This document shows positions 38,170 through 55,425 of a DNA stretch of 64,000 bases, piece after piece. The notes beneath the pieces were generated by a model that was not told where the DNA came from, made no database searches, and worked only from the letters and a program-made list of their open reading frames with translations. Positions within the stretch are counted from its first letter, which is position 1. Every line of letters begins with the position of its first letter. The stretch covers positions 1,392 through 65,391 of the forward strand of contig JAKSVT010000007.1 in the NCBI GenBank assembly GCA_024407875.1. Reading direction: 5' to 3'. The stretch comes from Alphaproteobacteria bacterium (lineage in GTDB: Bacteria; Pseudomonadota; Alphaproteobacteria; CAAGCB01; CAG-977). Position numbers and translations under genes: made by a program.

Positions 38170-38210
38170 GAATTTTTATAGATGTTTTGATAGTGTGAAA
38201 GGAAAAAACA

Positions 38211-38744: not shown

Positions 38745-38765
38745 TTTTTAGGAGATTTTTTAATT

Positions 38766-40253: not shown

Positions 40254-40268
40254 TATTTAATTTGTATG

Positions 40269-40327
40269 CCTTTGCTAGATAAGATCGTTTATAACGAAAA
40301 TTTCTAGCAAAGGATTTTTTTGTTTTT
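40269..40327 (+). terminator. Rho-independent terminator/attenuator after tssC
   Basis: An 11-bp perfect stem CCTTTGCTAGA (40269-40279) / TCTAGCAAAGG (40303-40313) followed by ATTTTTTTGTTTTT. Confidence 0.5.
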
Positions 40328-40362
40328 ATGTTTTGTTGTATAGGATTTTTTGTTCCTAATTC

Positions 40363-40890
40363 TTGTTTATTAAAGGGGTTTTTATGAATAATCAGTTTTT
40401 GAAAAATAAACAAGAAGCTTTGTATCTACCGTGCCTACTTCACAGATTAACAGATTTAAATCCTGAAGAAAAAAAAGAAAATGTATTACCAGGTGTTTAT
40501 ATCAGCAATTTAAAAAAAGATATTTTTGAAAATATTGAGATGATATTAAATTCTAAAACTCATCCTCAAGATGCTGATGTAAATAATATATCTGAAATTG
40601 AAAACAGTGTTTTGTTTTATGGCCTTAAAGATTGTTGTGGAAAATCTTATTCTAAAGATAGTTCTGAAAAAATTAGAGATGAGATTGAGCTTCAAATTAA
40701 ATTGTTTGAACCTCGTATAAATCCAGATACTTTAAATGTAGAGATCGTTGAAAATAAAGAGGCAGAAAAACCTTTTTTAATGTTTAGTATTTCAGGAAAT
40801 GTTGAGGTCGGAGAACTTTCTGAAGAAATAGTATTTTTATCTAAATTAAATTTAGAAACCGGTGAAACAAATATAAAATTTAAAGATTAA
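40363..40890 (+). CDS. tssE: Type VI secretion baseplate protein TssE (gp25/GPW-like)
   Basis: LLHRLTDLNPEE corresponds to the LLDRLTD signature of TssE/gp25 lysozyme-like proteins. Size and position (before tssF) fit. Confidence 0.6.
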   Translation: MFIKGVFMNNQFLKNKQEALYLPCLLHRLTDLNPEEKKENVLPGVYISNLKKDIFENIEMILNSKTHPQDADVNNISEIENSVLFYGLKDCCGKSYSKDSSEKIRDEIELQIKLFEPRINPDTLNVEIVENKEAEKPFLMFSISGNVEVGELSEEIVFLSKLNLETGETNIKFKD

Positions 40891-40903
40891 GTGGGGATGT
40901 AAT

Positions 40904-42703
40904 ATGGATTTTCTTGAATATTATCGTGAAAATCTTAGTTATTTGAGAACATTAGGCGCTGAATTTGCAAATGAATTTCCGAAAATTGCAAATAGATTGA
41001 ATATTAATCAATTTGATTGTGCTGATCCGTATGTAGAAAGACTTCTTGAAGGAACAGCTTTCTTGTCTGCTCGTGTTGAAAAAAAATTAGATGATGGCCA
41101 TAAGAGATTTTTAGAATCTATCTTATCAACAACATCTCCAGATGTTTTATGTCCTGTTGTTTCCGGTGCTGTTTTCGAATTAGAACCTAATTCAATTCAA
41201 GAAAAGAAAGATTTTATCGTAAAATCAGAAACAAAAATCAATGTTAAAATTCCAAAAATTAGTACGCCATGTACGTTCTCAACTATTTGGGATACAAACT
41301 TAATAGCCGCAACAGTTTCAAATGCAGAATATATAACAAGGGATTTAGCGGATTATAATTTAGATGAACAATGTGAGGCAGCTTTACATTTTACTTTAAG
41401 TCCAATTAAAGATAAAGGTAAAGGCCGTTTAATTTATGATAAACTTCATTTGTATTTTAATTCTTCAGATGTTGTAGCTTCAACGTTGTTACGTCAATGC
41501 CAGACTGATTTTGTCGGTGTTTATATTTCTAATGATGGAAAAAATTTTGTAAATTTAAATGATGTAAAAATTAAAGTTCCTGCTGCTGATCTAGATTCTA
41601 CAATATTTTCTATATATAAAGGAAATGCAAAAGGGCTAAGAGTTTTACAAAACTATATGTTGTATCCTTCATTTTTTAAATTTATTAGTCTTGAATGTGA
41701 TACTTTTTCTTGGGCTATAGAAAATAATACATTAGATGTTTTGATAACATTTAACCGAAGAGAAAATGAATTAATTAATGAAATTCGTAGTGATAGCGTA
41801 AAAGTAAATTGTGTTCCTACTCTTAATCTATTTAAAAAACGTTCAGATAGAATTGTCCTTGATAAAGATTCTTACGAATTGCATGTATTTCCAGAAAAAA
41901 TGAGGGCTCGAGATTTCGAAATCATTTACATTTATAAAATGGAATTTTATAACGAATTAAATGAAGAATTGTTTGATGCTTCTAGCTTTTATGATGAACA
42001 TTTAAAAGAAAAAGATAAGAGAAATTTTTATAGTATTCATAGAAGAAGAAGTTTGTTTGATAAAAAGGCTACTTTAAGATCTTCTTATTCTGGTACAGAA
42101 GTCTTTGCTTCGGTATCAGGTAATGCTGTGGATATGCAACCTATTAATCAATATCTTGCAGATATGGTTTGCTCAAATAGAGATTTGCCTTTATTAGTCA
42201 CAAATACTTCTGAAATTGAAATAAATGAAAAAAATATAAATTCAGCAAAATTTGTTTCGATGCCTACAAGACCTAATTATCCTTTAATTGATAGTGGTAA
42301 AGAAAATGATTGGGTTAAAGTTTCTCATGTTATGATGAATATTTCTAGCATAATGTGGGAGAATGGAACACTACCTTTAAGTATATTTAAGGATATTATT
42401 AAAAATTATAACTCACGTTCTGTAGATGAATTGGCACGCTTGTTAGAGGGTATTGTTGATTTGCATGGAGAACCTACAACATTTAGATTTATAAAAAATG
42501 GAAATGTATTCTTTGAAACTGGTTGGAAAATAAGTTTTACTTTAAATGAAAATTCTTATGCAGGCTTAGGCTTTTATACTTTTGGTGTGATTATAGCTGA
42601 AATGCTTAAATCTTTTTCTTCTTTGAATGCATTGGTAGAGATTGAATTTTTAACACAACAATCTGGATTAATTAAAACATGGCGGACATCGGAAAATATA
42701 TAA
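40904..42703 (+). CDS. tssF: Type VI secretion baseplate protein TssF
   Basis: N-terminus MDFLEYYRENLSYLRTLGAEFANEFPKIANRL matches the conserved TssF start. About 600 aa. Confidence 0.85.
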   Translation: MDFLEYYRENLSYLRTLGAEFANEFPKIANRLNINQFDCADPYVERLLEGTAFLSARVEKKLDDGHKRFLESILSTTSPDVLCPVVSGAVFELEPNSIQEKKDFIVKSETKINVKIPKISTPCTFSTIWDTNLIAATVSNAEYITRDLADYNLDEQCEAALHFTLSPIKDKGKGRLIYDKLHLYFNSSDVVASTLLRQCQTDFVGVYISNDGKNFVNLNDVKIKVPAADLDSTIFSIYKGNAKGLRVLQNYMLYPSFFKFISLECDTFSWAIENNTLDVLITFNRRENELINEIRSDSVKVNCVPTLNLFKKRSDRIVLDKDSYELHVFPEKMRARDFEIIYIYKMEFYNELNEELFDASSFYDEHLKEKDKRNFYSIHRRRSLFDKKATLRSSYSGTEVFASVSGNAVDMQPINQYLADMVCSNRDLPLLVTNTSEIEINEKNINSAKFVSMPTRPNYPLIDSGKENDWVKVSHVMMNISSIMWENGTLPLSIFKDIIKNYNSRSVDELARLLEGIVDLHGEPTTFRFIKNGNVFFETGWKISFTLNENSYAGLGFYTFGVIIAEMLKSFSSLNALVEIEFLTQQSGLIKTWRTSENI

Positions 42704-43749
42704 AAGTTGTATCCCGTAAATTAAAACAGGGAATTTCCGAACCAGATTTTTTTGAATTGGTTCGTCGGTTTGAGCAAAATTATAAAGATTTGCCAAGAAT
42801 AGGTTGTGCAAAAAGACCAACACAAGAAAAAATAAGGTTTGGTCAAGCTCCTTTTTTGAATTTCCCAGCTAATAATATATCGGAAATACGTACAGATAAA
42901 GGTTATTGTGATGCAATTATAATGACTTATTTCTTTGGTTTGTTAGGTGTTAATGGACCTATGCCATTAGAATTTACGAACTATGTATTTCAAAGATCTC
43001 ATAATTTTTATGATCAAACATGGCGTAGATTTTTGGATATAATTCATCATAGAATGATAACTTTGTTCTACTATGCTTGGGCAAAGAATGAACAAGCAGT
43101 AAGCTTTGATAGAAAAGACGATGATTTAATAACAACAATAATTAAATCGTTGGCTGGCGTTAGTTCTAAAAATGAAGACGTAAATGATGATTTATATTAT
43201 TTAAGTGCAGGAAATTGCAATTTTTTTGGTTCTTTTATTAAAAGTAAAACAGGTCTTGAACAAGTATTAAGAGGATTTTTTCATTCTGATATAAGAGTAA
43301 AAGAATTTGTTCCTTTTATGTACCCAATTCCAGAACAACATAGATGTAAATTAGGAAATTTTGAGACATCAATATTAGGAAACAATATCCAAATTGGTCG
43401 CTCTTATATGACTATTTCTAAGAAATTTAAAATTTTTATAGGCCCTTGTGATTTTAATTTTTCAAAAGATTTTATGCCAGGGTTTAAAAAGTTTGAATTG
43501 TTAATAAGAATAATAAATAAATATTTAAGCCGACCTTATGATTACGATATAGATTTAGAAATAAATTCAAAGACTTTACCTAAAGCAAAATTAGGTGATG
43601 TAAATGCTTCAACTTTAGGTTATAATTGTTGGCTAGGAAAAATTGATACAAATAAAAATGTAAATTTAAATATTGATGCAGGAAGAATTGCTTTAAAACA
43701 ACATATGGCATCAATTAAACATAAAAGGAGTATGAAATGGGCAAGTTAA
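42679..43749 (+). CDS. tssG: Type VI secretion baseplate protein TssG
   Basis: EPDFFELVRRFEQ matches the TssG N-terminal FDFFQAVRLLE signature. Overlaps tssF. Confidence 0.8.
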   Translation: MADIGKYIKVVSRKLKQGISEPDFFELVRRFEQNYKDLPRIGCAKRPTQEKIRFGQAPFLNFPANNISEIRTDKGYCDAIIMTYFFGLLGVNGPMPLEFTNYVFQRSHNFYDQTWRRFLDIIHHRMITLFYYAWAKNEQAVSFDRKDDDLITTIIKSLAGVSSKNEDVNDDLYYLSAGNCNFFGSFIKSKTGLEQVLRGFFHSDIRVKEFVPFMYPIPEQHRCKLGNFETSILGNNIQIGRSYMTISKKFKIFIGPCDFNFSKDFMPGFKKFELLIRIINKYLSRPYDYDIDLEINSKTLPKAKLGDVNASTLGYNCWLGKIDTNKNVNLNIDAGRIALKQHMASIKHKRSMKWAS

Positions 43750-46385
43750 AACGTGTTCAAATGTTTGCAAAGTTAAACGCTGTTGCTTATAAGGCTATTG
43801 AAAGCGCTACGATTTTATGCAAAACAAGAGGAAACCCTTATGTAGAATGTGTTCATTGGGTTAACCAAATTATAATGGGTGATAATAATGATTTTCATGC
43901 CATTATTAAATATTTTGCTTTGGATGAAGCTAAATTGGCAAAAGATTTGACAAGAGCCATGGATGCTTTACCTCGTGGAGCAACATCAATTTCTGATTTT
44001 TCAAGTACAATTGAACATGTTATCAAAGAAGCTTGGATGACAACATCTTTGGTATTTAGTGAAGGAGCTATCCGTACAGGACACGTTATGTGTGCAATGA
44101 AATCTAATCAAGATATTGCACGTTTGCTTCATGAAATGAGTGATGAATTTGTTAAAATTAATGGCGATTTATTAGTTGAAAAATTCAAAGAAATTGTAAA
44201 AGATTCTTCTGAACAATCTGTTGTTGTATCAGGCGGAGATTCTGCTGCTACAGGCCAAGCTGGTCAATTAATGGGTAATGCTCAAATGGGTAAGGGTGAA
44301 GCGTTAAAACTTTACACTGTTGATATGACAGAACAAGCTAAGTCTGGAAAATCTGATCCTATTGTTGGTAGAGATGCTGAAATTCGTAAGATTATTGATA
44401 TCTTAATGCGCCGTCGCCAAAACAATCCAATTTTAACAGGTGATGCTGGCGTTGGTAAAACTGCCGTTGTAGAAGGATTTGCTCAACGTTTAGCTGCTGG
44501 CGATGTTCCTGATTGCTTAAAGGGTACAATTTTAAGATCATTAGATATTGGCTTGCTTCAAGCTGGTGCAAGTATGAAAGGTGAGTTTGAAAATCGTTTA
44601 AAACAAGTAATTGAAGAAGTACAATCTTCAGAAACACCAATTATTTTGTTTATTGATGAAGCTCATACTTTGATTGGTGCTGGTGGCCAAGCTGGTCAAA
44701 ATGATGCTGCTAATTTGTTAAAGCCTGCTTTAGCTCGTGGTCAATTGCGTTGTATTGCAGCAACAACTTGGGCTGAGTATGTAAAATATTTTGAAAAAGA
44801 CCCTGCATTAACACGTAGATTCCAAAATATTTTGGTGGATGAACCTGATGATGATAAAGCTACTCAAATGATGAGAGGTATTTCTGGAGCTTTAGAAAAA
44901 CATCACAAGGTATTGATTTTAGATGAAGCTTTATCTTCAGCTGTTAAATTATCTCGTAGATATATTCCAGCTCGTCAATTGCCTGACAAAGCTGTAAGTA
45001 TTTTGGATACTGCTTGCGCAAGAGTTGCTTTGTCTCAAAATTCAGATCCTGCAGAATTAGAATTCTGTAAACGTAAAATACAGGCTTTAGAGTTAGAACA
45101 AGAAATTTTAAATCGTGAACAAACAGAAGGTTGTAATCATGAAGAAAAGTTAGCATCTATTAAAGCTGAAATAGAAAAGCAAAATGTTAAAAAAGAAGAA
45201 TTAGAAAAACGTTTAGATGCTGAAAAGAAACTTGTTGAAGAATGTCGTAAATTACGTGATGATTTAAGAGAAAAAGGTTCTTCTGACGAAACAATTCGTG
45301 AAAAATTGTTAGAAAAACAAAAAGAATTGGCAACATTACAAGGTGAAGATCCTTTAGTATTGCCACAAGTTGATACTCAAGCTGTTTCAACAATTATTTC
45401 TGAATGGACAGGTATTCCATTAGGAAGAATGGTTAAGAATGAAATTCAGTCGGTATTGAATTTAGGCGATGAAATGAACAAACGTGTTATCGGACAAAAA
45501 CACGGTTTGGATTTGATAGCACGTCGTGTTATGACTGCAAGAGCATCATTAGCAGATCCTAATAGACCTATTGCTGTTATTATGTTAGCCGGACCAAGTG
45601 GTGTTGGTAAAACAGAAACAGCTTTAGCTCTTGCTGAACAAATGTACGGTTCTGAACAAAATATTGTAACGATTAATATGTCAGAATTCCAAGAAGCTCA
45701 TACTGTATCAACATTGAAAGGAGCTCCTCCGGGATATGTAGGATATGGTGAAGGTGGCGTTTTAACAGAAGCTGTTAGACGTAAGCCTTACAGTGTTGTT
45801 TTATTGGATGAAGTTGAAAAAGCTCATCCTGATGTTCATGAAATATTCTTCCAAGTATTTGATAAAGGTCAAATGGAAGACGGAGCAGGGCGTTTAATTA
45901 ACTTCAGAAACACAGTTATTATTTTAACAACAAATGTTGGTGATAATGCTATTTGTGATTTGTGTGAAGATGAAGATAATTTGCCTGATATGTCAGTATT
46001 AGAAGAAGCTGTAAGACCTGCTATGATGAAGGTTTTCCCAGCTGCTTTGTTAGGACGTATTTCTATAGTTCCTTATTATCCTTTAGGCAAAAAAGCTTTA
46101 TATTCAATTATTGATTTGAAATTAGCTAAAGTTCAAAAGAGAGTTAAAGAAAATTATCATGCTGAATTAACTTATACAGATAATGTAAGAAATGAAATTA
46201 TTAGACGTTGTAATAATGTTGCTTCAGGTGCTCGTTTGATTGATGCTATAATCAATAATGACTTATTGCCAGAGATTTCAGCTTCATTTTTACGCAATAC
46301 AATGGAAGGTCATGTTATGAAAAAAGCCATTGTTGATGCTAAGGATGAAAATTTCACTTATAGCTTTGAAAATAAGGATGAGTAA
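43737..46385 (+). CDS. clpV: Type VI secretion ATPase ClpV/TssH (AAA+ ClpB-like)
   Basis: Clp N-domain. Two AAA+ modules (GDAGVGKTAVVEG and GPSGVGKTETALALAE Walker A motifs), middle coiled-coil, VVLLDEVEKAHPDV Walker B. No ClpP-binding loop is evident. Confidence 0.92.
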   Translation: MGKLKRVQMFAKLNAVAYKAIESATILCKTRGNPYVECVHWVNQIIMGDNNDFHAIIKYFALDEAKLAKDLTRAMDALPRGATSISDFSSTIEHVIKEAWMTTSLVFSEGAIRTGHVMCAMKSNQDIARLLHEMSDEFVKINGDLLVEKFKEIVKDSSEQSVVVSGGDSAATGQAGQLMGNAQMGKGEALKLYTVDMTEQAKSGKSDPIVGRDAEIRKIIDILMRRRQNNPILTGDAGVGKTAVVEGFAQRLAAGDVPDCLKGTILRSLDIGLLQAGASMKGEFENRLKQVIEEVQSSETPIILFIDEAHTLIGAGGQAGQNDAANLLKPALARGQLRCIAATTWAEYVKYFEKDPALTRRFQNILVDEPDDDKATQMMRGISGALEKHHKVLILDEALSSAVKLSRRYIPARQLPDKAVSILDTACARVALSQNSDPAELEFCKRKIQALELEQEILNREQTEGCNHEEKLASIKAEIEKQNVKKEELEKRLDAEKKLVEECRKLRDDLREKGSSDETIREKLLEKQKELATLQGEDPLVLPQVDTQAVSTIISEWTGIPLGRMVKNEIQSVLNLGDEMNKRVIGQKHGLDLIARRVMTARASLADPNRPIAVIMLAGPSGVGKTETALALAEQMYGSEQNIVTINMSEFQEAHTVSTLKGAPPGYVGYGEGGVLTEAVRRKPYSVVLLDEVEKAHPDVHEIFFQVFDKGQMEDGAGRLINFRNTVIILTTNVGDNAICDLCEDEDNLPDMSVLEEAVRPAMMKVFPAALLGRISIVPYYPLGKKALYSIIDLKLAKVQKRVKENYHAELTYTDNVRNEIIRRCNNVASGARLIDAIINNDLLPEISASFLRNTMEGHVMKKAIVDAKDENFTYSFENKDE

Positions 46386-46476: not shown

Positions 46477-46770
46477 ATGCCAACACCAGTTGCTACTATT
46501 GCTAATTTAACAGCTACAGGAGATGTAATCGTCGGACCAGGTGGAATTACTACAATGGTTAAAGGATTGCCTGTTGCTTGTATGGGAGATGCTGTTACTG
46601 GACCTATGTGTATAGGAGCAATTACGATGACTACTGCCTTAAACAAATTAGCAAAAGGTCGTCCAATTGCAAATTTAGGTTCTATGGTTACAGGTATAAA
46701 TCCTGCTGCTTTTGGAGCTCCAATGGCTACGGCAGTTGCTGTTTGTCCTAATGTTAATGAGATTGTTTAA
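46477..46770 (+). CDS. PAAR-like spike-tip protein (97 aa), atypical
   Basis: Three P-x-A/C-x-x-G repeats (LPVACMGD, GPMCIGA, RPIANLGS) in a small hydrophobic beta-rich protein, located between clpV and vgrG. Confidence 0.5.
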   Translation: MPTPVATIANLTATGDVIVGPGGITTMVKGLPVACMGDAVTGPMCIGAITMTTALNKLAKGRPIANLGSMVTGINPAAFGAPMATAVAVCPNVNEIV

Positions 46771-46831: not shown

Positions 46832-48028
46832 ATGAACTCAAATGAAAATGAATTATTAAAATTATCTTTTGTTGATAAAAAATTAGAAGATTTTTATTTA
46901 TATAATATCGACTTAGAGGAAAACCTTAGTTTTGATTATAAAGCTACTTGTATCGCTTTGTCTGAAAAGCCTCATACAGTTGAGGAATTAAAAGAAGTTC
47001 TTGGATTTAAAGCAGACATACAAATTATTCAATTTGATGAACGTCAAAATTCAAGAAAAAGATATTTATCAGGTGTTGTCACATCAATTGAACATTTAGG
47101 ACTTTTCTGCAGATTAGAAAAATCTGAGGTTTTTGCATATAAATTTACTGTTGAACCTCAAGTTGCTGTTCTTAAAAATGTTATAAAGCTACAAGCTTAT
47201 AACAATACTAATGTTTATGATGTTATTAATGAAGTTTCTCAACAATATGGGTTAGGCTTTATTTTAAACGAAAATTATATTTTAAAAGATGATTACATTC
47301 CTAAATGTAATTATAATCAAAATGAAGTATCAACATACCATTTCTTAAAAGAAATTTTTGAAATGTATGGCCTATCTTTATGCTATAATCATTCTAAAGA
47401 TGCTACTCAAGTATTTGTTACAAATGGAAACAAGGTTCCAGTAGCTTCTGCTCTTGAGTTTTCTAAGGGTAAAGATGACGTTGAAAAACCTTATAATATT
47501 GATTTATACAAGTATAAAAATGATGATGATGCTAATTTGTTGCATATGGATCAATGGAATATGAAAACTTCACTTGGAGTTGATGGTGTACGTTTGTTAG
47601 AAACATATCCTAATTCGAATGTAAGTGGAGAAGAATGGAAAACAAAAGGCTTTGAGGATAAGAAAAGATTTGTTGAATATACAAGACATTTCCATATGTA
47701 TGCCTATGGATGCACCAAAGAAGAAGTTGATAAAGATGTAAAAACTATATTAGAAGCTCAACAAAGAAGAAATGATATTAATAAAGATTTGTGGCAAGGA
47801 AAAGCTTCAAATATAATGTTAATGCCTGGTAGATTAATAAAAGTATTTCATGCTTATTCCAATAAAGACAATAGTGCTTTATTTGCTCTGATTAATAAAA
47901 CACATTTAAATGTTTATGCTAGATTCCCAACTAATTTAGCTCAATTGGTAGATCTAGAAAAATCAAATAAATTTGAAGTAAGCATTGAAGCAATGAATTA
48001 TAGTGAAGAAAAGAGATTTGTTGGATAG
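46832..48028 (+). CDS. vgrG: VgrG N-terminal half (gp27-like hub domain) encoded as a separate ORF (398 aa)
   Basis: VgrG/gp27-like blocks (RYLSGVVTSIEHLG, VYDVINEVSQQYGLGFI). Ends with tandem TAG TAG stops (48026-48031) in the same frame as the downstream gp5-like ORF. Confidence 0.7.
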   Translation: MNSNENELLKLSFVDKKLEDFYLYNIDLEENLSFDYKATCIALSEKPHTVEELKEVLGFKADIQIIQFDERQNSRKRYLSGVVTSIEHLGLFCRLEKSEVFAYKFTVEPQVAVLKNVIKLQAYNNTNVYDVINEVSQQYGLGFILNENYILKDDYIPKCNYNQNEVSTYHFLKEIFEMYGLSLCYNHSKDATQVFVTNGNKVPVASALEFSKGKDDVEKPYNIDLYKYKNDDDANLLHMDQWNMKTSLGVDGVRLLETYPNSNVSGEEWKTKGFEDKKRFVEYTRHFHMYAYGCTKEEVDKDVKTILEAQQRRNDINKDLWQGKASNIMLMPGRLIKVFHAYSNKDNSALFALINKTHLNVYARFPTNLAQLVDLEKSNKFEVSIEAMNYSEEKRFVG

Positions 48029-48040
48029 TAGGAGTTTTTC

Positions 48041-50581
48041 ATGAATTTAAAAGAAATGATTGTTTGCGGTGTAAACGGAGAAATTTCAGGAAAAGTTAGT
48101 TCACAAAAGGCAAATGATAAATTTTCATTCTATGCAAAGATTGATGATAATCAAAAAAATCCTTTTGTTATTAAATACATGATGCCAGTTGGTGGTGTAA
48201 CCAATGGGCTATATAGATTTCCAAAAGTAGGAGAAAAAGTTTTAGTATCAGAAGAAGGCGAAACAAGATATTTAATGGGATATCTTCCTAATTCTTTAAG
48301 TCAAGATTTTGATACAACTAATGAAACTGATACAGCTTATAAAAATGAAGGATTAGTTTTACGTTATAAAAAATCAGGCTCTAATAATTCAAATAAAGAA
48401 TATTCAGAGATTGGTTTTTATTCTAAGCAAAGTGACTTTTTAACGTCTCCAACAGAATTAAAAGATGAAAAAACAAAAATAAAGAAGATAATTGAAGATG
48501 ATTATGAGTATTATGTAAACACAAAAGACCCGTTGATTGCAGAGATAAGAGCTAATACTAAGAAAAATTTGGATAAATTTGGTCAACGTTCGAACGATTT
48601 CAATTTAGATCCTTTAAAAGGGGCGTTTGTTAATGCTCTTGTTGATTATAAAGTAGGGAATAAGATTGCAACTCTAAATATGGATAGTGTGGAGCTTTAT
48701 TCTACGGGAGATATTCAGTCAAAAGCTCAGAATATAAACGAATTGTTCGGCCAACGTTTATCATTAAGGTCTTCTTTCTTAAATGATGAAAATATACATA
48801 TAGACGATAAAGCAGTTCCATTAAAGAAAGATTTAAAAACAAAAGGTGAACTTTTAAAAGCAAAATCGAAAGAACTTATTTCAATTGAAAAGGAAATTGA
48901 AAAACTTCAAGAAGAGAAGTATGAGAAAAAGCAAAAGAAAGAGAATACAAGCAATATCGATAGTGCAATAAATACTAAAGTATCAAATTTAGAAAAATTA
49001 GGAGAACAATATAACAATTTAAGTAAAGAGATTGCTAAGCTCAAAAATGATATCAAATCAAAGAACGGAAAAAATATTCAGTTGTTTGATTATAGAAAAT
49101 CTGATGTAACAAAAGGTAGTATAGCAATAGTAGCCGACAATGAAATTTCGATAAATGCTAGGTCTGGAATTACTTTATCTGTTGGTGCTATAAAACTAAA
49201 GATTTCTCCGACGGGTGTTGATATTACATGTAATAGGGTAAATGGTGTAGGTAGAGGTGTTTTTGATAGTACTTTTAGTATGAAGCAAAATGGTTCTGTT
49301 TTGCTAACAGGTTCTACTGTAGGTATTTCAGGAACAAGATCTGTTTCAGTTGGAGATGGATTAGGCGGAAGATTATCTACAGAATTAGGAAACGTTGATA
49401 TAAAAGGTGGTTCAATATCAACTTCTACACAGAGTGCTTTTGTGATGACACAAAACTTAGCATGGTATCTTAATGACTTTGCTCATCAAATCACGGCTCT
49501 TTGTGAAAGTAATCCTACTAGATCATGGGCAAGAGATGTAACTGCAGATAGTTCTTGGGGGGCTGCTTTAAAAACAATTAAAAAGGTTATTGGTGTAGCA
49601 AATAAAGTTGCTCCTACAGGAGCCAAAACTGCAAACAATGATGTTAGACATGAAGCTATGGATGCAGTATCAAGATTAATCTCATTAATGTTAATAATAT
49701 TAGATAATGTTAAAAATGTTTTGATTGAAAAGAAAGTTAATAACAAACTAGCTATTAATTATAATCTCGAAACAGGAAAATTTAATACTTATGACAATAG
49801 ATTTGATTATGAAATGGCATTCGCTGTTTGTGAAGCTACGCTAATAACAACAATTATGTCATTGACAATTCTTTCTGCTAAAGAGGCTTATTTTCATCAA
49901 GCTTCTATTAAATATACTCAAGCCGGAAGTTTAGTTTTAGACTCTAAAGGTTATTATCAAGATTCTATACTAGCAAAAACAGCTAGAGCTGTACTTGCTG
50001 GTATTGCTAAACTTCAAGCTAAAAAGGAGGCTCATGATTCTAATAATGGTAATCCTGCTTTAACCAATGAAGAGGAGGAGTTCCTCAATAATCATAGAGA
50101 AACTAATATAAACGATAAAAAGACAGCATACGAAACTGCTCTTATTGAAGAGAAAAAAGCAGAAGATGATTTTAAAGCAGATCCTACTAATGCTACTAAA
50201 GAAACTGCTTATAAGAATGCTCTGGCAGAACGTAAGAGAAAAGAAAGAGAATATAGAGAGGTTAACAAATACCATGGAATAGTAGCAGGTGAAGATTATT
50301 ATTTAGGAAGGACTTTGTATAAGTCATATCAATTAGAAGGGGATGTTGTAAATGGATATACTGTTAAATGGGGTTCTATTTCAGATATAATTAAAAATGC
50401 TAAAGAAAGAGATGATGATGGTAATGAGTTTACAAATCGATTCACACAGTTAAATAATACTACTGCGATTTTAGGCTGGATTAATGATGCAGCAACTATA
50501 TGGGGGGCTTTCTCTTTAGCTTATTGTGATTACTATAATGTGATAACTCCTGAAACAAGGTCTAAATTAATTGAATTATAA
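48041..50581 (+). CDS. vgrG: VgrG C-terminal half: gp5-like OB-fold, coiled-coil insertion, beta-helix repeats, and ~380-aa uncharacterised C-terminal extension (846 aa)
   Basis: RFPKVGEKVLVSEEGETRYLMGYLPN is the gp5 OB-fold signature. Later GSIAIVADNEISINARSGITLSVGAIKLKISPTGVDI beta-helix-like repeats. AGGAG RBS 6 nt upstream of the ATG. Confidence 0.7.
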   Translation: MNLKEMIVCGVNGEISGKVSSQKANDKFSFYAKIDDNQKNPFVIKYMMPVGGVTNGLYRFPKVGEKVLVSEEGETRYLMGYLPNSLSQDFDTTNETDTAYKNEGLVLRYKKSGSNNSNKEYSEIGFYSKQSDFLTSPTELKDEKTKIKKIIEDDYEYYVNTKDPLIAEIRANTKKNLDKFGQRSNDFNLDPLKGAFVNALVDYKVGNKIATLNMDSVELYSTGDIQSKAQNINELFGQRLSLRSSFLNDENIHIDDKAVPLKKDLKTKGELLKAKSKELISIEKEIEKLQEEKYEKKQKKENTSNIDSAINTKVSNLEKLGEQYNNLSKEIAKLKNDIKSKNGKNIQLFDYRKSDVTKGSIAIVADNEISINARSGITLSVGAIKLKISPTGVDITCNRVNGVGRGVFDSTFSMKQNGSVLLTGSTVGISGTRSVSVGDGLGGRLSTELGNVDIKGGSISTSTQSAFVMTQNLAWYLNDFAHQITALCESNPTRSWARDVTADSSWGAALKTIKKVIGVANKVAPTGAKTANNDVRHEAMDAVSRLISLMLIILDNVKNVLIEKKVNNKLAINYNLETGKFNTYDNRFDYEMAFAVCEATLITTIMSLTILSAKEAYFHQASIKYTQAGSLVLDSKGYYQDSILAKTARAVLAGIAKLQAKKEAHDSNNGNPALTNEEEEFLNNHRETNINDKKTAYETALIEEKKAEDDFKADPTNATKETAYKNALAERKRKEREYREVNKYHGIVAGEDYYLGRTLYKSYQLEGDVVNGYTVKWGSISDIIKNAKERDDDGNEFTNRFTQLNNTTAILGWINDAATIWGAFSLAYCDYYNVITPETRSKLIEL

Positions 50582-50596
50582 GAAGGAAAATAGAAA

Positions 50597-50989
50597 ATGG
50601 CTTTAGATGAAGATGATAAATTAGTAATAAAAGCTGTTGTAGAGCCAATAATTGATACAGTAGGTATAGAATTGTTAACAGCAGCTGTAAATGCTGGTAT
50701 AAAAAAATTATCTGCAACAAATGTTGAAGAAAGTGATTTATCAGGTAAGAGAGATTTAAAACCTTCAGAACAAGAGGTTACAATAAGTAAAACAGAGACA
50801 GCAGCTTCAGAAACAGAAGGCAAATTGTCTAAAGATGGTGTGTCTGCTCAACATGGTGATATTGAAGCTTCAGAAACGACGGCTGTAGCACAAGGAGCTG
50901 AAGCAACAGCTTTAGAATCTGGTGCCCAAGCTGTAAGAACGAAAGCAGGTGCTTCAGATATTGAAGCAAAAGCTTTGAAGATAACCTGA
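50597..50989 (+). CDS. Hypothetical Ala/Thr/Glu-rich protein downstream of vgrG (130 aa)
   Basis: In operon position immediately after vgrG. Low-complexity acidic sequence. Not Hcp-like. Confidence 0.3.
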   Translation: MALDEDDKLVIKAVVEPIIDTVGIELLTAAVNAGIKKLSATNVEESDLSGKRDLKPSEQEVTISKTETAASETEGKLSKDGVSAQHGDIEASETTAVAQGAEATALESGAQAVRTKAGASDIEAKALKIT

Positions 50990-51021
50990 TATTTGCTATT
51001 GTATAATTTAAGGAATAAACA

Positions 51022-52200
51022 ATGAGTGATAATTTAAGCTGGACAAAACGTCATTTCGTCTTATTGAGATATCTTGAATTAAAAGATGTAATTGAAAAAG
51101 AACAATATAAGAAAAGACCAGATTTACAAGAATTCTATGAAAATAGAAAAAGTGTAGAAGATATAATTTGGCATTTTGCTGATAAATCTCGTTATAAATG
51201 TGCTTGTGATTTGCTTGCATATTCTTCAAATAGAAGAGCTGTAATTTGGTGGTTGTATTTATGTGTATTATCATTATTTGAAGAATTTAAAATTAAGCCA
51301 AATATGGATAGAGATATAGAAGATATAGCAAAATCTTTTAAACCTGTTGTTCCCGATTTTGCAAAAATAGAACCCCCAAAACCAACTGATGGACAAATTC
51401 AAGAATTGGAAAATGATTTGGCTGAAATAAAATCTGCAGTAGCTTCTGTTAGAGAACTTGTAAACCCTGAAGTTATGGCAGAAGTTGATGAAGCTATGGA
51501 TTATGCTAACCAATTGTTTAAAGATAAATATGGTTCTTTTCCATTAGATTTAATTAAAAAACAATTGGAAAATCAAAAAGATCCTATGCCAATAGATCCA
51601 GAATCTCCAATTTATAAAGCTGCAGATGAGTTGGAACAAAAATTACAAGCTGTTCGTAAAAAGACTATTGATACTATTAAATCTGTTATTCCTCCAACAA
51701 TTCCGGAGCACGATAAAAAAATTATGGATGATGCTTTGCGTGCTGTATATAAATGGGTTATTTCTCCTGATGAAATAAATTCAAAAATTTGTTTGGATGC
51801 AGGTAATGAGTGTCCAGATAAGCCTGCAGGTCTACTAGCATTATCTGCTTTTTGGGCCGGTGGAAATTTAATGCCTGGTTCACAACAAGTCGTTCCAACA
51901 CCTCCAGGTCTTGCTGCAAATGGAGCATGCCAGGTTTTATTAATGTGCTCTTTAGCAAAAGGTGGAATAAGAGACGTAAAAGAACGCTTTAAACTCTATT
52001 TTGAGATAGGCGTTGATGTTATGATTGGTAAAAATGTATGGGATGATATTGTAGAAGTTAACCAGAAGAAATCTGCTGTTTATGATAAAATCCATGTTGA
52101 TAAAGAGAAATTAGAAAAAAATACAAACAATGAAAATATAATGCCTTCTGAAAATGTTTCTAATTTGAAATATTCTAGATGGAAACCTGATATTAAATAA
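51022..52200 (+). CDS. Hypothetical protein, T6SS-associated by position (392 aa)
   Basis: Coding-like, co-oriented, between vgrG and the terminator before tssJ. No recognised family. Confidence 0.35.
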   Translation: MSDNLSWTKRHFVLLRYLELKDVIEKEQYKKRPDLQEFYENRKSVEDIIWHFADKSRYKCACDLLAYSSNRRAVIWWLYLCVLSLFEEFKIKPNMDRDIEDIAKSFKPVVPDFAKIEPPKPTDGQIQELENDLAEIKSAVASVRELVNPEVMAEVDEAMDYANQLFKDKYGSFPLDLIKKQLENQKDPMPIDPESPIYKAADELEQKLQAVRKKTIDTIKSVIPPTIPEHDKKIMDDALRAVYKWVISPDEINSKICLDAGNECPDKPAGLLALSAFWAGGNLMPGSQQVVPTPPGLAANGACQVLLMCSLAKGGIRDVKERFKLYFEIGVDVMIGKNVWDDIVEVNQKKSAVYDKIHVDKEKLEKNTNNENIMPSENVSNLKYSRWKPDIK

Positions 52201-52529: not shown

Positions 52530-53186
52530 ATGAAACATATATTCTATTTGTTGTTAATAAGTACTGTTATGTTAACGGGGTGCTATACAAAATGTGGAAT
52601 GGTTGCAGGCTTTGCTCCTAAACTAAAATCTTCTTATTCAAATAGATATCCTACGGTAGAACTTGATTATATGGCTATAACAGAGGATGAAGCCGTTGAA
52701 TTGTCGAGTATTTCTGTTGAGGAATATTTTTCTTTTTCTCAATTACGTAAATCTTTAAATCCATATACTATAGTTTTATCTTCCGAAGAAACAGAACCTC
52801 AAGAAATGCTTACAAAAGTTGATAATTGGGATAATTGGTTAGATAAAAACCCTGAAAAAATAGCTGTTGTTGTTAATATTCCAAAATTGGTTCAAAAAGA
52901 AAAAACAGATAAAGATAAAAACAAAGATAGTCGTCTTTTAATATATCCTTTAAAGAAAAGCTGGTTTTCTCCAAGAACGGATTATTTAGAAATTCGTCCT
53001 GGAAATGTTATAAAAATAGCTACTAGACCTGTTGATCCTGAAGCAAAAACCAAGAAAATAGCAAAACAAGAAAAAGAAGATGCTATTAAGAAAGCTGAAG
53101 AAGAACAAAAACAAGAAGAAATTAAACAAGCTGAAGAACGTAAGAAAAAGCGTAAATGCAGAAAAGTTAGATGTAAAGTAATGTAA
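52530..53186 (+). CDS. tssJ: TssJ-like outer-membrane lipoprotein with polybasic Cys-containing C-terminal tail (218 aa)
   Basis: Lipobox LLISTVMLTGC. Located directly upstream of tssK-tssL-tssM (conserved tssJKLM order). Unusual C-terminal KKKRKCRKVRCKVM. Confidence 0.5.
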   Translation: MKHIFYLLLISTVMLTGCYTKCGMVAGFAPKLKSSYSNRYPTVELDYMAITEDEAVELSSISVEEYFSFSQLRKSLNPYTIVLSSEETEPQEMLTKVDNWDNWLDKNPEKIAVVVNIPKLVQKEKTDKDKNKDSRLLIYPLKKSWFSPRTDYLEIRPGNVIKIATRPVDPEAKTKKIAKQEKEDAIKKAEEEQKQEEIKQAEERKKKRKCRKVRCKVM

Positions 53187-53204
53187 TTTTTAGGAATTAA
53201 GATA

Positions 53205-54587
53205 ATGCGTTTTGATGAAAGTATACACTGGAATAATGGTTTATTTATGCAGCCTCATCATTTGCAATATATGCAAAGATATATAGATTCTATGGCTCAT
53301 GCTAATAGACAATTAATATCTTCATATCCATATGGATTGATTGATTTTGTCCCTGATTTGGATGCTTTGTCTGGGGATAGAGTTGTAATAAAACGCTTAT
53401 CAGCTGTTATGCCTGATGGAACAGAAATTAGCCAACCAGGTAATTGTGTTATTCATCCTTTAGATTTAAAAAATGTTTTAAATGAACAAGTTTCATCATT
53501 TAAGGTTTATTTAGGTATCCCAGTTTGGTCTGAATTTGATGCAAACTTATCTGAAAATGAGAAGAATGAAAAGAAACGTAGATTTTTAACTGTTGAAAAA
53601 TCTATTAGAGATGAAAATACTGGGGATGACGAAATATCTGTTGTTACAAGAAGATTAAATGTTTCATTGTTAACAGAATTCGATGATATGGAGGATATGG
53701 TTACTATCCCTCTTATGAAAATTAATGTTCTTATTAATGATAACGCAGAAAAACGTCTTGAATGTGATGAAAAATTCATTCCTCCATTTATTGTTGTTTC
53801 AAATGATAGTTCTTTAGTTTCATTAGTTTCTAATTTAATGTCTGAAGTACGTCGTTGCAGAGATAAATTATTAAACGATTTGATGTTAACAAAGTTTACA
53901 TCAGAAAACTTTTCTGGAGCTGAAGCTTATAACACATTACAATATCGTGTTTTAAATTTATATGAAAACAGGTTATCAATGGAGATTTCTGGATGTAAAA
54001 TATCTCCATTTGAATTGTATTTTGAATTAAGATCTTTCTTAGCAGAATTAATGGGACTTCATCCATTAAATGAAATTAAAGAGATTCAAAATTACAATCA
54101 CTTAGATTGTTCTCCTCAATTTTATGAATTAGTAAATGATATTCAATCAATGATTATGTCTGAAGGTGGAGCAAGTTATATTGCTTTGAAACTTAATCCA
54201 ATTGATGATGGAGATTATTTATTTACAGAAATTCAAACACAACACATTGTAAAAGCTAGTGAATTTTATTTGGCTGTTCGTGCAGATTTAGAAGATCGTA
54301 GAGTTATTCAAGCTTTAGAAAAAGGTGATACATTTAAGATAATTAATCCAAGAGCAAAGATGATGCGTATTCGTGGTATCAAATTATCTGAAATGAGATA
54401 TCCTCCAAGATTTTTGCCAAATTTAAACAATACACTTTGGTTTAAACTTGACGTAGAAGAAACCCCTAAAACATGGCAAGATATTTGTTCTGAACATGGG
54501 ATTCTTGTTGATTATGCTAAGGATTTATTCCCAAGCTTAGAAGCTACTTTATTCTTAACAATTGTTGATTCTGAAACAAGGAATTAG
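53205..54587 (+). CDS. tssK: Type VI secretion baseplate protein TssK
   Basis: N-terminus MRFDESIHWNNGLFMQPHHLQYMQRY matches the conserved TssK start (W-EG-L-PQHFQ). Confidence 0.85.
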   Translation: MRFDESIHWNNGLFMQPHHLQYMQRYIDSMAHANRQLISSYPYGLIDFVPDLDALSGDRVVIKRLSAVMPDGTEISQPGNCVIHPLDLKNVLNEQVSSFKVYLGIPVWSEFDANLSENEKNEKKRRFLTVEKSIRDENTGDDEISVVTRRLNVSLLTEFDDMEDMVTIPLMKINVLINDNAEKRLECDEKFIPPFIVVSNDSSLVSLVSNLMSEVRRCRDKLLNDLMLTKFTSENFSGAEAYNTLQYRVLNLYENRLSMEISGCKISPFELYFELRSFLAELMGLHPLNEIKEIQNYNHLDCSPQFYELVNDIQSMIMSEGGASYIALKLNPIDDGDYLFTEIQTQHIVKASEFYLAVRADLEDRRVIQALEKGDTFKIINPRAKMMRIRGIKLSEMRYPPRFLPNLNNTLWFKLDVEETPKTWQDICSEHGILVDYAKDLFPSLEATLFLTIVDSETRN

Positions 54588-54590
54588 TTA

Positions 54591-55424
54591 ATGTCCGCTT
54601 TAGAAAATATTTGTCGTCCAATATTAATTAGTATGTGTAATTATTGGCAACTTATTGAAAATAATCAATCTGTTGACAAAGATACTTTTAAAAAAGAAAT
54701 AAGATCTTTAATTAGTGAAGCCAGAGAAACAGCTAATAAATCTCCTTCATTAGAAAGAGAATTTTCTCGTGTTGAAAAGCCTTTGATTTTCTTCGTTGAC
54801 TATATGGTTAAAGAAGGAAATTTTCCATTTAAAAATGAATGGAGAGAAATAGGGCGTGAATATAATGAACTTTCAGGCGATGAAAAATTCTTTGATATGT
54901 TAACAGAAACTTTGGATGACCCAGATTCTGCGAACAGTTTAGAAATTTTCTATAATGTTATGGGATTAGGGTTTAGTGGTATTTACCAAAACGATCCTGA
55001 ATATCTTGAACGTAGAATGAAGGTTTGTGCATCTCGTTTTGATACTAATAGTTTAGATTTGACTAAAGAAGAAATTATAAAAGTTGATGAAACAATTTTA
55101 GATAAAAAAGTGATTCCTAATGAAAAACAAATGTTTAAAGTTAGAAATTTGGTTTTCTTCTGCTTGTTTGTAATGCTTGTTACTTTTGGAGTCAATTTGT
55201 GGAAATTCTTATCTGTTACGTATGAATATAGAGATGCTTTAGATAGGGCTGTGGATGCATCTATACCAAACTCAATTATTGTTGATAGTAGAAATAGACA
55301 CCGTGCAAAAAAACAAACATTTTCAAATGAAAAAAGCAGTAAAAAAGATAAGGCTTTTTTAGAAGAAAATAAGAATCGTAAACAACTGAAGAAAAAGAAT
55401 AGAAATAATTTGGAGGAAAACTAA
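54591..55424 (+). CDS. tssL: Type VI secretion membrane protein TssL (DotU/IcmH family)
   Basis: Cytoplasmic DotU-like domain followed by a single C-terminal TM helix (LVFFCLFVMLVTFGVNLW). No OmpA/peptidoglycan-binding extension. Confidence 0.75.
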   Translation: MSALENICRPILISMCNYWQLIENNQSVDKDTFKKEIRSLISEARETANKSPSLEREFSRVEKPLIFFVDYMVKEGNFPFKNEWREIGREYNELSGDEKFFDMLTETLDDPDSANSLEIFYNVMGLGFSGIYQNDPEYLERRMKVCASRFDTNSLDLTKEEIIKVDETILDKKVIPNEKQMFKVRNLVFFCLFVMLVTFGVNLWKFLSVTYEYRDALDRAVDASIPNSIIVDSRNRHRAKKQTFSNEKSSKKDKAFLEENKNRKQLKKKNRNNLEEN

Positions 55425-55425
55425 G

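What the first reader, a model, noticed from the sequence alone, without database searches (positions are those of the whole stretch)
46832..50581. VgrG split into separate gp27-like and gp5-like genes by tandem in-frame TAG-TAG stops with a perfect RBS
The 398-aa ORF carries the gp27-like hub part of VgrG and stops with TAG TAG (48026-48031). The next ORF starts at 48041 in the SAME reading frame (48041-46832 = 1209 = 3 x 403) and opens with the gp5 OB-fold signature (RFPKVGEKVLVSEEGETRYLMGYLPN). The second TAG forms part of an AGGAG Shine-Dalgarno 6 nt before the ATG. This recreates the ancestral phage arrangement (separate gp27 and gp5) inside a T6SS. It could be a functional two-gene spike, or a very recent nonsense inactivation of vgrG. 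It is not a frameshift.
Basis: seen in the sequence. Interest (0 to 1): 0.7.

Follow-up and report, generated by a model that had tools for sequence, protein, structure and literature searches.

The report
Two-gene VgrG: separate hub and spike
In this gut bacterium's type VI secretion system the normally single-piece VgrG spike protein is made from two separate genes, a hub and a spike; related bacteria have the same split and keep one hub gene next to up to four different spike genes, so it is a lasting design and not a broken gene.

Summary
ORF1 (46832-48028, 398 aa, gp27-like) ends TAG-TAG, AGGAG overlaps the second TAG, and ORF2 (48041-50581, 846 aa) starts in the same frame at the gp5-type OB fold.

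It is not a recent nonsense mutation.
- An exhaustive HMMER search found that the nearest relatives of ORF1 (27-36% identity) are all stand-alone proteins of about 400 aa ending at the same KRF(C) motif.
- All 14 related hub loci encode a separate hub. Every spike gene whose 5' end is visible starts at the conserved M-x-L-x-E-M-I-V.
- The hub-spike junction varies: ATGA overlap, 3-24 nt spacers in any frame, genes 6.5 kb apart, or the order reversed. The in-frame TAG-TAG is therefore incidental. Tandem stops follow 11 of 43 ORFs in this window.
- Both genes are under purifying selection in relatives.
- More distant relatives, including L031 with the same accessory genes, are fused.
- Relatives carry one PAAR-hub pair and 1-4 spike-p130-DUF6931 cassettes. 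Their docking domains are conserved and the remainders diverge.

Best reading: an old fission of a canonical T6SS VgrG in gut Alphaproteobacteria and termite-gut spirochaetes that lets one hub serve exchangeable spikes. Reviews describe T6SSi VgrG as a fusion, so this is a new variant of a known kind.

The parts
46477..46770 (+). PAAR-like tip protein (97 aa), directly upstream of the hub gene
   Evidence: Pfam PAAR_motif E 3.4e-05, 24.4 bits, just below the 27-bit cut-off. A 96-103 aa homologue sits in the same position in relatives.
46832..48028 (+). Stand-alone gp27-like hub gene (398 aa), the N-terminal half of a VgrG; ends ...EEKRFVG-TAG
   Evidence: Pfam Phage_GPD 1.2e-13 and TIGR03361 positions 7-316 of 513. 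The family profile hits the N-terminal part of solved VgrGs. The nearest relatives are all stand-alone proteins of 391-423 aa.
48026..48043 (+). Junction: TAG (48026-28), TAG (48029-31), AGGAG (48030-34), 6-nt spacer, ATG (48041-43)
   Evidence: Read directly. Identical in a second assembly. The Shine-Dalgarno pattern is typical of the cluster, and tandem stops are common in the window.
48041..50581 (+). Stand-alone gp5-like spike gene (846 aa). N-terminal OB fold (about aa 1-84), neck (LRYKK...YSEIGFY), a coiled-coil insertion, a conserved beta-rich region (about aa 355-470), and a C-terminal region with hydrophobic helices and an extension.
50597..50989 (+). p130, the first accessory gene of the spike cassette (130 aa, no known family)
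   Evidence: No Pfam or PHROG hit. A homologue follows nearly every complete spike gene in relatives; none was detected after the first spike of L021.
51022..52200 (+). DUF6931 protein, the second accessory gene of the spike cassette (392 aa)
   Evidence: Pfam DUF6931 E 4.7e-22. It is the third gene of each spike-p130-DUF6931 cassette in relatives.
37090..46385 (+). Upstream T6SS core genes: tssA, tssB, tssC, tssE, tssF, tssG, clpV, all intact
   Evidence: Pfam ImpA_N, VipA, VipB, GPW_gp25, TssF and TssG. ClpV is an 882-aa ORF with AAA domains on record.
52530..59802 (+). Downstream T6SS genes: a lipoprotein-like ORF, tssK, tssL, tssM, all intact
   Evidence: TssK: Pfam 7.7e-61 and TIGR03353 7.7e-67. 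DotU and IcmF-related_N.

Best explanation
ORF1 and ORF2 are the two halves of a canonical T6SSi VgrG. An old gene fission divided it at the short linker between the gp27-like hub and the gp5-like OB fold. Both halves are kept as functional genes.

Proposed mechanism (inferred, by analogy with T4 gp27-gp5):
- The hub trimer sits in the TssEFGK baseplate and seeds the Hcp tube.
- The spike trimer docks non-covalently on the hub through its conserved N-terminal OB domain.
- The spike carries the beta-structured shaft that the upstream PAAR-like protein caps, plus a variable C-terminal payload.
- p130 and DUF6931 are spike-specific helpers. Their roles are unknown; chaperone, adaptor or immunity are possibilities.

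In this window the two genes are co-transcribed. The second is translated from its own Shine-Dalgarno site, which overlaps the second stop codon.

The likely advantage of the split is modularity. One conserved hub can be combined with several exchangeable spike cassettes, as seen in relatives with 2-4 cassettes.

Shown: the split, its conservation, its boundaries, its varied junctions, selection on both genes in relatives, and fused outgroups. Inferred: non-covalent assembly, hub sharing, and the accessory roles.
For: 1. Nearest relatives are stand-alone hubs. In an exhaustive HMMER search, relatives P0002-P0011 (E 6e-67 to 7e-31) are 345-423 aa and match end to end. Fused proteins of 920-1220 aa appear only from E 5e-19.
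2. The hub C-terminus is conserved. All hubs end within about 12 residues of a conserved KRF(C) motif.
3. Genomic context agrees.
   - 14 hub loci all encode hub ORFs of 403-423 aa, measured stop to stop.
   - Every spike ORF whose 5' end is visible begins at spike-profile position 1. In 24 of 27 that is within 12 codons of an upstream stop; in L016, L024 and L026 the stop-to-stop frame extends further upstream.
   - All 27 examined spike genes start with a version of M-x-L-x-E-M-I-V.
4. Junctions differ between relatives.
   - ATGA overlap, frame +2: L003, L012, L018, L019.
   - TAA plus 3, 24 or 4 nt: L020, L021, L024.
   - Hub and spike 6.5 kb apart: L006/L015.
   - Hub downstream of the cassette: L022.
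   - PAAR directly before the spike: L023.
5. Fused homologues keep both motifs joined by a short linker.
   - L031: ...DKRFCAKEPEMRHNEAPVIREAVVCDINGKT.
   - P0016: ...EKRWVPGEREEGGVKRKEALFPSSLNLIETVVC.
   - Window: EEKRFVG | MNLKEMIVCGVNGE.
   - L031 has the same PAAR ... p130-DUF6931 neighbours.
6. In a tree of the gp27 region, all stand-alone hubs but one form a single clade among fused VgrGs.
7. Both genes are under purifying selection in relatives. For the least saturated pairs, dN/dS is 0.12 for hubs and 0.17 for spikes.
8. Cassettes multiply behind a single hub: x2 in L003 and L019, x3 in L021, and x4 in L013, where the hub gene itself lies outside the fetched stretch. Paralogous spikes keep the OB domain at 54-95% identity while the remainder falls to 29-60%.
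9. All other T6SS core genes in the window are intact.
10. The hub derives from VgrG and not from a phage.
   - The family profile hits solved VgrGs.
   - It has no PHROG match.
   - tblastn finds nothing in 50,697 phage records.
Against: - There is no experimental evidence that the two proteins assemble or that the system fires.
- No close relative of this particular organism was found. The best hub match is 36% identical, and one search found nothing. Selection was therefore measured on other members of the family, not on the window's own genes.
- The OB assignment rests on weak single-sequence Pfam matches (best 1.1e-5).
- The family profile of the spike N-terminus found no VgrG in PDB by sequence.
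- The beta-helix and PAAR-binding part of ORF2 was not modelled.
- The clade of split hubs has only 60/100 support in a crude neighbour-joining bootstrap.
- No hcp gene lies in the window.
Confidence: 0.85

Rival explanations
1. A recent nonsense mutation (sense codon to TAG) inactivated a normal fused vgrG, and ORF2 is a decaying remnant that happens to have an ATG.
For: The two ORFs are in the same frame and only 12 nt apart. More distant relatives of the same subfamily are fused.
Against: - Every close relative is split at the same boundary, with different junction geometries.
- The hub C-terminus and spike N-terminus are conserved family features.
- An 846-codon open frame in 30% GC DNA is not expected from a decaying remnant.
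- The Shine-Dalgarno site and ATG are placed as in other genes of the cluster.
- The linker present in fused homologues is absent here, rather than interrupted.
Confidence: 0.02
2. The stops are a sequencing or assembly artefact, and the real gene is continuous.
For: The window comes from a metagenome-assembled genome. No raw reads were inspected.
Against: A second assembly pipeline (Logan, run SRR17543911) gives an identical 10,980-bp contig, although possibly from the same reads. Two adjacent stops plus a start context would need several errors. Unrelated assemblies of relatives show the same architecture.
Confidence: 0.01
3. Programmed read-through of TAG-TAG gives a minor fused hub-spike protein alongside the two separate products.
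For: The in-frame arrangement would allow it: the translation reads ...KRFVG * * E F F M N L K....
Against: - Two consecutive stops make read-through very inefficient.
- TAG ends tssB, tssK and tssM here, at positions that match the ends of their Pfam models.
- No tRNA gene, suppressor or otherwise, lies in the window.
- Relatives with out-of-frame overlaps or unlinked genes cannot do this.
Confidence: 0.03
4. There was no fission. The T6SS lost the gp27 part of its VgrG and recruited a phage or tailocin gpD-type hub, as the database name 'phage late control D family protein' suggests.
For: NCBI names ORF1 that way, and Pfam Phage_GPD covers both phage gpD and VgrG. Separate hub and spike genes are the rule in P2-like phages and pyocins (general knowledge).
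Against: - The next-nearest relatives of the hub are fused VgrGs of the same subfamily, which also carry the spike-type C-terminal part.
- Fused homologues contain both the KRF(C) hub end and the LxExxV spike start.
- There is no PHROG hit and no tblastn hit in 50,697 phage records.
- The family profile hits solved T6SS VgrGs.
Confidence: 0.06

Closest known systems
Canonical T6SSi VgrG (TssI), e.g. P. aeruginosa VgrG1 (PDB 4MTK/4UHV) and E. coli c3393 (2P5Z)
   Same: It has the same domain order: gp27-like hub, OB fold, beta-structured spike, optional C-terminal extension. It sits in the same place in a tssA-M/clpV cluster next to a PAAR gene. The hub profile matches these structures by sequence, and the model of the spike N-terminus matches them by fold.
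   Different: Here the hub and the OB-plus-spike part are two polypeptides from two genes. Reviews state that in T6SS types i and iii VgrG is a single fused polypeptide (PMC10433429, PMC8632748). The relatives also multiply only the spike half, not the whole vgrG.
Phage T4 gp27 + gp5 (+ gp5.4)
   Same: There are two separate proteins, split before the OB fold. In T4 the gp5 N-terminal OB domain docks on the gp27 trimer, and a PAAR-type protein caps the tip (PMC5924787).
   Different: No lysozyme domain was detected in ORF2. The hub is most closely related to VgrGs and not to phage proteins. The arrangement looks secondarily derived by fission and not retained from a phage ancestor.
Francisella T6SSii VgrG (164 aa) + PdpA
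   Same: It is a T6SS whose central spike is built from two proteins instead of one VgrG (PMC5924787, PMC8632748).
   Different: The split point differs: Francisella VgrG lacks both gp27 and the OB fold, and PdpA is proposed to supply them. The machinery also differs (Igl/Pdp genes), whereas this window has canonical TssA-M and ClpV.
P2 gpD + gpV, R-type pyocin hub and spike (PDB 4S37, 3QR8), Mu gp44 + gp45
   Same: Hub and spike genes are separate. The spike starts with an OB fold, and these spikes are among the fold matches.
   Different: Those spikes are about 170-210 aa with no long C-terminal part. There is no sequence relation to ORF1 in the phage collections. The context here is a T6SS and not a tail module.
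Multiple vgrG paralogues with cognate adaptor/effector genes (vgrG islands) in T6SSi bacteria
   Same: The logic is the same: several alternative spike modules, each with its own downstream accessory genes (PMC13373197 abstract, and general knowledge).
   Different: In known systems each island duplicates the whole vgrG, including gp27. Here only the spike half with p130 and DUF6931 is duplicated, behind a single hub.

Membership tests
VgrG/TssI of T6SSi | gp27-like hub domain | tested here: met
   ORF1 matches Pfam PF05954 at E 1.2e-13, above its cut-off. The family profile hits solved VgrGs at 1e-12 to 8e-5. TIGR03361 matches at 2.8e-20 but below its curated cut-off, as expected for half a protein.
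VgrG/TssI of T6SSi | gp5-type OB fold following the hub | tested here: met
VgrG/TssI of T6SSi | Trimeric beta-helical or prism spike that binds PAAR | tested here: inconclusive
   ORF2 residues of about 355-470 are homologous to the matching region of fused VgrGs of the subfamily. No confident structure was obtained; the single-sequence model failed. A PAAR-like gene is adjacent.
VgrG/TssI of T6SSi | Hub and spike fused in one polypeptide | tested here: not met
   Two stops, a Shine-Dalgarno site and a new ATG separate them. The separation is conserved in all close relatives.
VgrG/TssI of T6SSi | Encoded within a T6SSi core gene cluster | tested here: met
   TssA, B, C, E, F, G, ClpV, K, L and M lie on the same strand around it. 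hcp is not in the window.
Phage P2 gpD ('late control D') hub, as the gene is named in NCBI | Part of a phage or tailocin tail module and related to phage hub proteins | tested here: not met
   The neighbours are T6SS genes. There is no PHROG family match and no tblastn match in the phage collection. The nearest non-split relatives are VgrGs.
T4-type gp27 + gp5 two-protein spike | Separate hub and spike genes, split before the OB fold | tested here: met
   ORF2 begins at the first strand of the OB domain.
T4-type gp27 + gp5 two-protein spike | gp5 lysozyme domain and phage ancestry | tested here: not met
   ORF2 has no lysozyme or other Pfam hit. There are no phage relatives.
Francisella-type T6SSii spike (VgrG + PdpA) | Short VgrG lacking the OB fold; PdpA as cap; Igl/Pdp machinery | tested here: not met
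Functional two-protein complex (hub trimer plus spike trimer) | Physical 3+3 assembly and secretion | not testable with these tools
   No multimer prediction or experiment was available. The only support is indirect: conserved termini, a conserved OB domain among paralogues and purifying selection.

The most novel reading that the evidence does not exclude
A distinct lineage of T6SSi in gut Alphaproteobacteria and termite-gut spirochaetes has permanently uncoupled the VgrG hub from the spike. This creates a combinatorial loading system. One hub gene serves a library of exchangeable spike-p130-DUF6931 cassettes that compete for the same docking site. The non-covalent joint may also let the loaded spike detach from the tube and hub after firing. 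That would be a new organisational principle for T6SS effector diversification. It would also be a natural test bed for how gp27-type hubs recognise gp5-type spikes.
Probability: 0.5. Interest if true: 0.7.

Novelty: new variant of a known kind. Interest (0 to 1): 0.6.

Why it matters
- **It is an exception to a stated rule.** Reviews describe the gp27-gp5 fusion as a feature that sets T6SS (types i and iii) apart from phages (PMC10433429, PMC8632748). A conserved, selected split inside an otherwise canonical T6SSi shows that the covalent link is dispensable.
- **It suggests a cheaper route to effector diversity.** Relatives duplicate only the spike half with two helper genes, so one hub can serve many payloads.
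- **It affects annotation.** The hub is named 'phage late control D family protein'. Spike fragments from relatives are named 'hypothetical protein'. I infer that automated T6SS detection would score these clusters as lacking VgrG.
- **It assigns a context to two uncharacterised families.** DUF6931 and p130 travel with each spike.
- **It could be useful experimentally.** A separable hub and spike would help in studying or engineering spike loading.

Tried and rejected
- **Word-indexed protein searches reached little.** ORF1 alone found only itself. The hub alignment found 5 proteins. The spike N-terminal alignment found 10 contig-end fragments and not even ORF2 itself. The census therefore rests on the exhaustive HMMER search and the contig scans.
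- **Some contig scans failed.** A scan of metagenome contigs for close relatives of ORF1 found none.
- **The first structure prediction was wasted.** Single-sequence AF2 of ORF2 aa 1-320 gave pLDDT 44.
- **PDB sequence searches with the spike found nothing relevant.** This holds for ORF2 alone and for the spike N-terminal profile.
- **PHROGs gave nothing** for the hub, spike, p130 or DUF6931 proteins.
- **Literature searches** for a split VgrG or separate gp27-like and gp5-like genes in T6SSi found no such report. DUF6931 appears once, in passing, in an unrelated preprint. Holosporales T6SS papers describe scattered clusters with ordinary vgrG and are not the same system.
- **Explanations considered and rejected:** TAG reassignment or read-through, a phage-derived hub, an assembly error, and a recent pseudogene. 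See the rival explanations.
Full report
**1. The observation**

- ORF1 runs 46832-48028 (398 aa) and ends ...EEKRFVG-TAG.
- A second TAG follows at 48029-48031. AGGAG occupies 48030-48034. Six bases later the ATG at 48041 opens ORF2 (48041-50581, 846 aa).
- The two ORFs are in the same frame.

Domain matches also agree.
- ORF1 matches Pfam Phage_GPD over nearly the whole model (E 1.2e-13) and positions 7-316 of the 513-position VgrG model TIGR03361.
- ORF2 residues 36-73 match the Phage_base_V OB domain weakly.

An independent assembly (Logan, SRR17543911) is identical over 10,980 bp across the junction.

- A second in-frame stop follows 11 of 43 ORFs in this 30% GC window.
- An AGGA/GGAG motif 6-9 nt before the ATG is the usual start context in the cluster.

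**2. Surroundings**

The pair lies inside a complete, intact, single-strand T6SSi cluster. The gene order is:
- tssA, tssB, tssC, tssE, tssF, tssG, clpV
- a 97-aa PAAR-like gene
- ORF1, ORF2
- a 130-aa gene with no known family (p130)
- a DUF6931 gene
- a lipoprotein-like gene
- tssK, tssL, tssM

No hcp gene and no second spike gene are in the window. NCBI labels the source a MAG of an alphaproteobacterium. ORF1 and the hub of a horse-faeces MAG (P0060) occur in the same large assembly, GCA_024500515.1. This suggests a horse-gut origin, but that is an inference.

**3. Is the split conserved?**

An exhaustive HMMER search of 1.84 billion representative proteins with ORF1 found 57 relatives.
- The ten best after self (27-36% identity, E 6e-67 to 7e-31) are 345-423 aa and match ORF1 end to end.
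- Shorter fragments also stop at the end of the hub profile.
- Fused proteins of 920-1220 aa appear only from E 5e-19. They carry both a hub part and an ORF2-like part.
- The stand-alone hubs align along their whole length and all end within a few residues of a conserved KRF(C) motif.

Genomic context was recovered for four hubs, for 17 loci from species-representative genomes, and for 6 metagenome loci. I scored stop-to-stop ORFs with family HMMs.
- All 14 distinct hub loci encode a hub ORF of 403-423 aa.
- Every spike ORF whose 5' end is visible begins at spike-profile position 1. In 24 of 27 this is within 12 codons of an upstream in-frame stop; in L016, L024 and L026 the stop-to-stop frame reaches further upstream.
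- All 27 examined spike genes open with a version of the same motif, M-x-L-x-E-M-I-V.

The carriers are gut Alphaproteobacteria MAGs (sheep and buffalo rumen, horse, human gut) and termite-gut Treponema/Spirochaetaceae MAGs. Their loci have 30-56% GC, so the split is not a by-product of AT-richness.

**4. The junction is variable but the boundary is not**

Among adjacent hub-spike pairs:

| Locus | Junction | Relative frame |
|---|---|---|
| Window | TAG + 12 nt | 0 |
| L003, L012, L018, L019 | 4-nt ATGA overlap | +2 |
| L020 | TAA + 3 nt | 0 |
| L021 | TAA + 24 nt | 0 |
| L024 | TAA + 4 nt | +1 |

Other arrangements also occur.
- In L006/L015 the spike cassette lies 6.5 kb from the hub, behind hcp, aspS and other genes.
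- In the Treponema locus L022 the hub follows the cassette.
- In L023 the PAAR gene directly precedes a spike.

The in-frame TAG-TAG of the window is therefore one incidental solution, not a trace of a nonsense event.

**5. Where the break falls**

I aligned hub plus spike pairs with fused homologues. The break sits in the linker between the gp27-like domain and the first OB strand. Fused proteins keep both boundary motifs joined by a short variable linker:
- P0016: ...QEKRWVPGEREEGGVKRKEALFPSSLNLIETVVCDRSGN
- L031: ...DKRFCAKEPEMRHNEAPVIREAVVCDINGKT
- Window: EEKRFVG | MNLKEMIVCGVNGE

L031 is especially telling. It has the order PAAR, one 951-aa fused hub-spike, p130, DUF6931. That is the same module, unsplit.

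A neighbour-joining tree of the gp27 region puts all stand-alone hubs except P0029 in one clade, next to fused VgrGs (60/100 in a crude bootstrap). Taken with the general rule that T6SSi VgrGs are fused, this points to an old fission and not to retention of a phage-like state.

A phage origin of the hub is not supported.
- The hub family profile hits solved T6SS VgrGs.
- There is no PHROG match.
- tblastn finds nothing in 50,697 phage records.

**6. Is ORF2 really gp5-like?**
- Phage_base_V is the only Pfam family found. It is found in 25 of 26 family N-termini, best E 1.1e-5.
- An AF2 model of residues 1-175 with an 11-sequence alignment has pLDDT of about 70-85 for residues 1-84 and shows a five-strand barrel.
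- Foldseek ranks PVC, Afp and other CIS spikes first, but no E-value is at or below 0.001.
- Sequence-only searches of PDB found nothing for this part.

The assignment is therefore moderately supported by fold. It is strongly supported by homology to the matching part of fused VgrGs. The shaft and the C-terminal region were not modelled.

**7. Function of the split**

Both genes are under purifying selection in relatives.
- For the least saturated pairs, dN/dS is 0.12 for hubs (L012 vs L019, dS 0.28) and 0.17 for spikes (L003 vs L010, dS 0.27).
- Many other pairs are saturated, so those values are only indicative.

Relatives carry one PAAR-hub pair but one to four tandem three-gene cassettes of spike-p130-DUF6931. 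I found x2 in L003 and L019, x3 in L021, and x4 in L013, where the hub gene itself lies outside the fetched stretch.

Within a genome, paralogous spikes keep the N-terminal OB domain at 54-95% identity, while the remainder is 29-60% identical. The OB domain is the more conserved part in 10 of 10 pairs, one of them by only 61 to 60%.

This is the pattern expected if all spikes must dock on one shared hub while their payload ends diversify. I therefore propose a 'one hub, many spikes' system in which the non-covalent hub-spike joint works like T4 gp27-gp5. The assembly itself and the roles of p130 and DUF6931 are inferred, not shown.

**8. Comparison with what is known**

[quoted passage not shown] They contrast this with phages and with Francisella type ii, where a 164-aa VgrG lacking gp27 and the OB fold works with PdpA (PMC10433429, PMC8632748, PMC5924787).

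The present system has canonical type-i machinery, is split like T4 (before the OB fold), and is split at a different point from Francisella. Full-text searches found no description of such a split in T6SSi. That is absence of evidence in the searched library only.

I rate it a new variant of a known kind.

**9. Rivals**

| Rival | Status | Key evidence |
|---|---|---|
| Recent pseudogene | Effectively excluded | |
| Assembly error | Effectively excluded |, and the same architecture in unrelated assemblies |
| TAG-TAG read-through | Effectively excluded | TAG ends tssB, tssK and tssM; out-of-frame or unlinked genes in relatives |
| Phage-derived hub | Unlikely | |

**10. Limits**
- No close relative of this organism was found.
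- No multimer modelling or experiment was possible.
- Fold evidence for the OB domain is modest.
- The phylogeny is crude.

Noticed in passing
window 50597-52200; L003 13082-18247; L013 1-14238; L021 9992-20234: A near-invariant three-gene cassette (spike, a protein of about 130 aa with no known family, DUF6931) is repeated one to four times in tandem in relatives; p130 was not detected after the first spike of L021. DUF6931 has essentially no literature, with one passing mention. The cassette gives both proteins a T6SS spike-associated context.
   Followed up: partly
window 40254-40362 (tssC-tssE gap) and the whole window: No hcp gene is in the 64-kb window (tblastn). Relatives L003 and L008 carry hcp between tssC and tssE, and L006 has hcp copies outside the operon. 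The tube gene must lie elsewhere in this genome or be missing.
   Followed up: partly
window 34597-36870 and 59823-63740: Two large ORFs (757 aa and 1305 aa) flank the T6SS cluster on the same strand. Neither has a Pfam or PHROG match. They may be effectors or lineage-specific T6SS components.
   Followed up: no
window 52530-53186: This 218-aa ORF starts MKHIFYLLLISTVMLTGC, which looks like a lipoprotein signal peptide with a lipobox. It sits just before tssK, and a 229-aa gene occupies the same place in L003. It is a candidate divergent TssJ. It has no Pfam hit.
   Followed up: no
L021, L022, L023, L025, L026 versus L010-L020, L024: The same split-VgrG module occurs in gut Alphaproteobacteria MAGs and in termite-gut Treponema/Spirochaetaceae MAGs. 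This implies horizontal transfer of the T6SS module between phyla that share gut habitats.
   Followed up: no
L031 3360-8382: This metagenome contig carries the same module unsplit: PAAR, one 951-aa fused hub-spike, p130, DUF6931. Only about 13 residues link the KRFC motif to the OB start. It is a natural comparator for the fission.
   Followed up: yes
L030 367-1292; L032 3-1883: L030 has a 250-aa truncated spike ORF directly followed by another spike start. L032 has a spike broken into two ORFs. These look like decayed or recombined cassettes, which shows what real degradation looks like in this family.
   Followed up: no
window 48041-50581 (ORF2 about aa 255-345 and about aa 655-846): Compared with the 611-646-aa spikes of L003, the window's spike has a lysine/glutamate-rich coiled-coil insertion and a C-terminal extension of about 190 aa. 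Spike lengths in the family range from 529 to 934 aa, which suggests variable payload regions.
   Followed up: no
P0029 (406 aa): One stand-alone hub-length protein groups with fused VgrGs, next to P0030, and not with the split clade. It may be a second, independent fission or a truncated gene. Its genomic context could not be retrieved.
   Followed up: no
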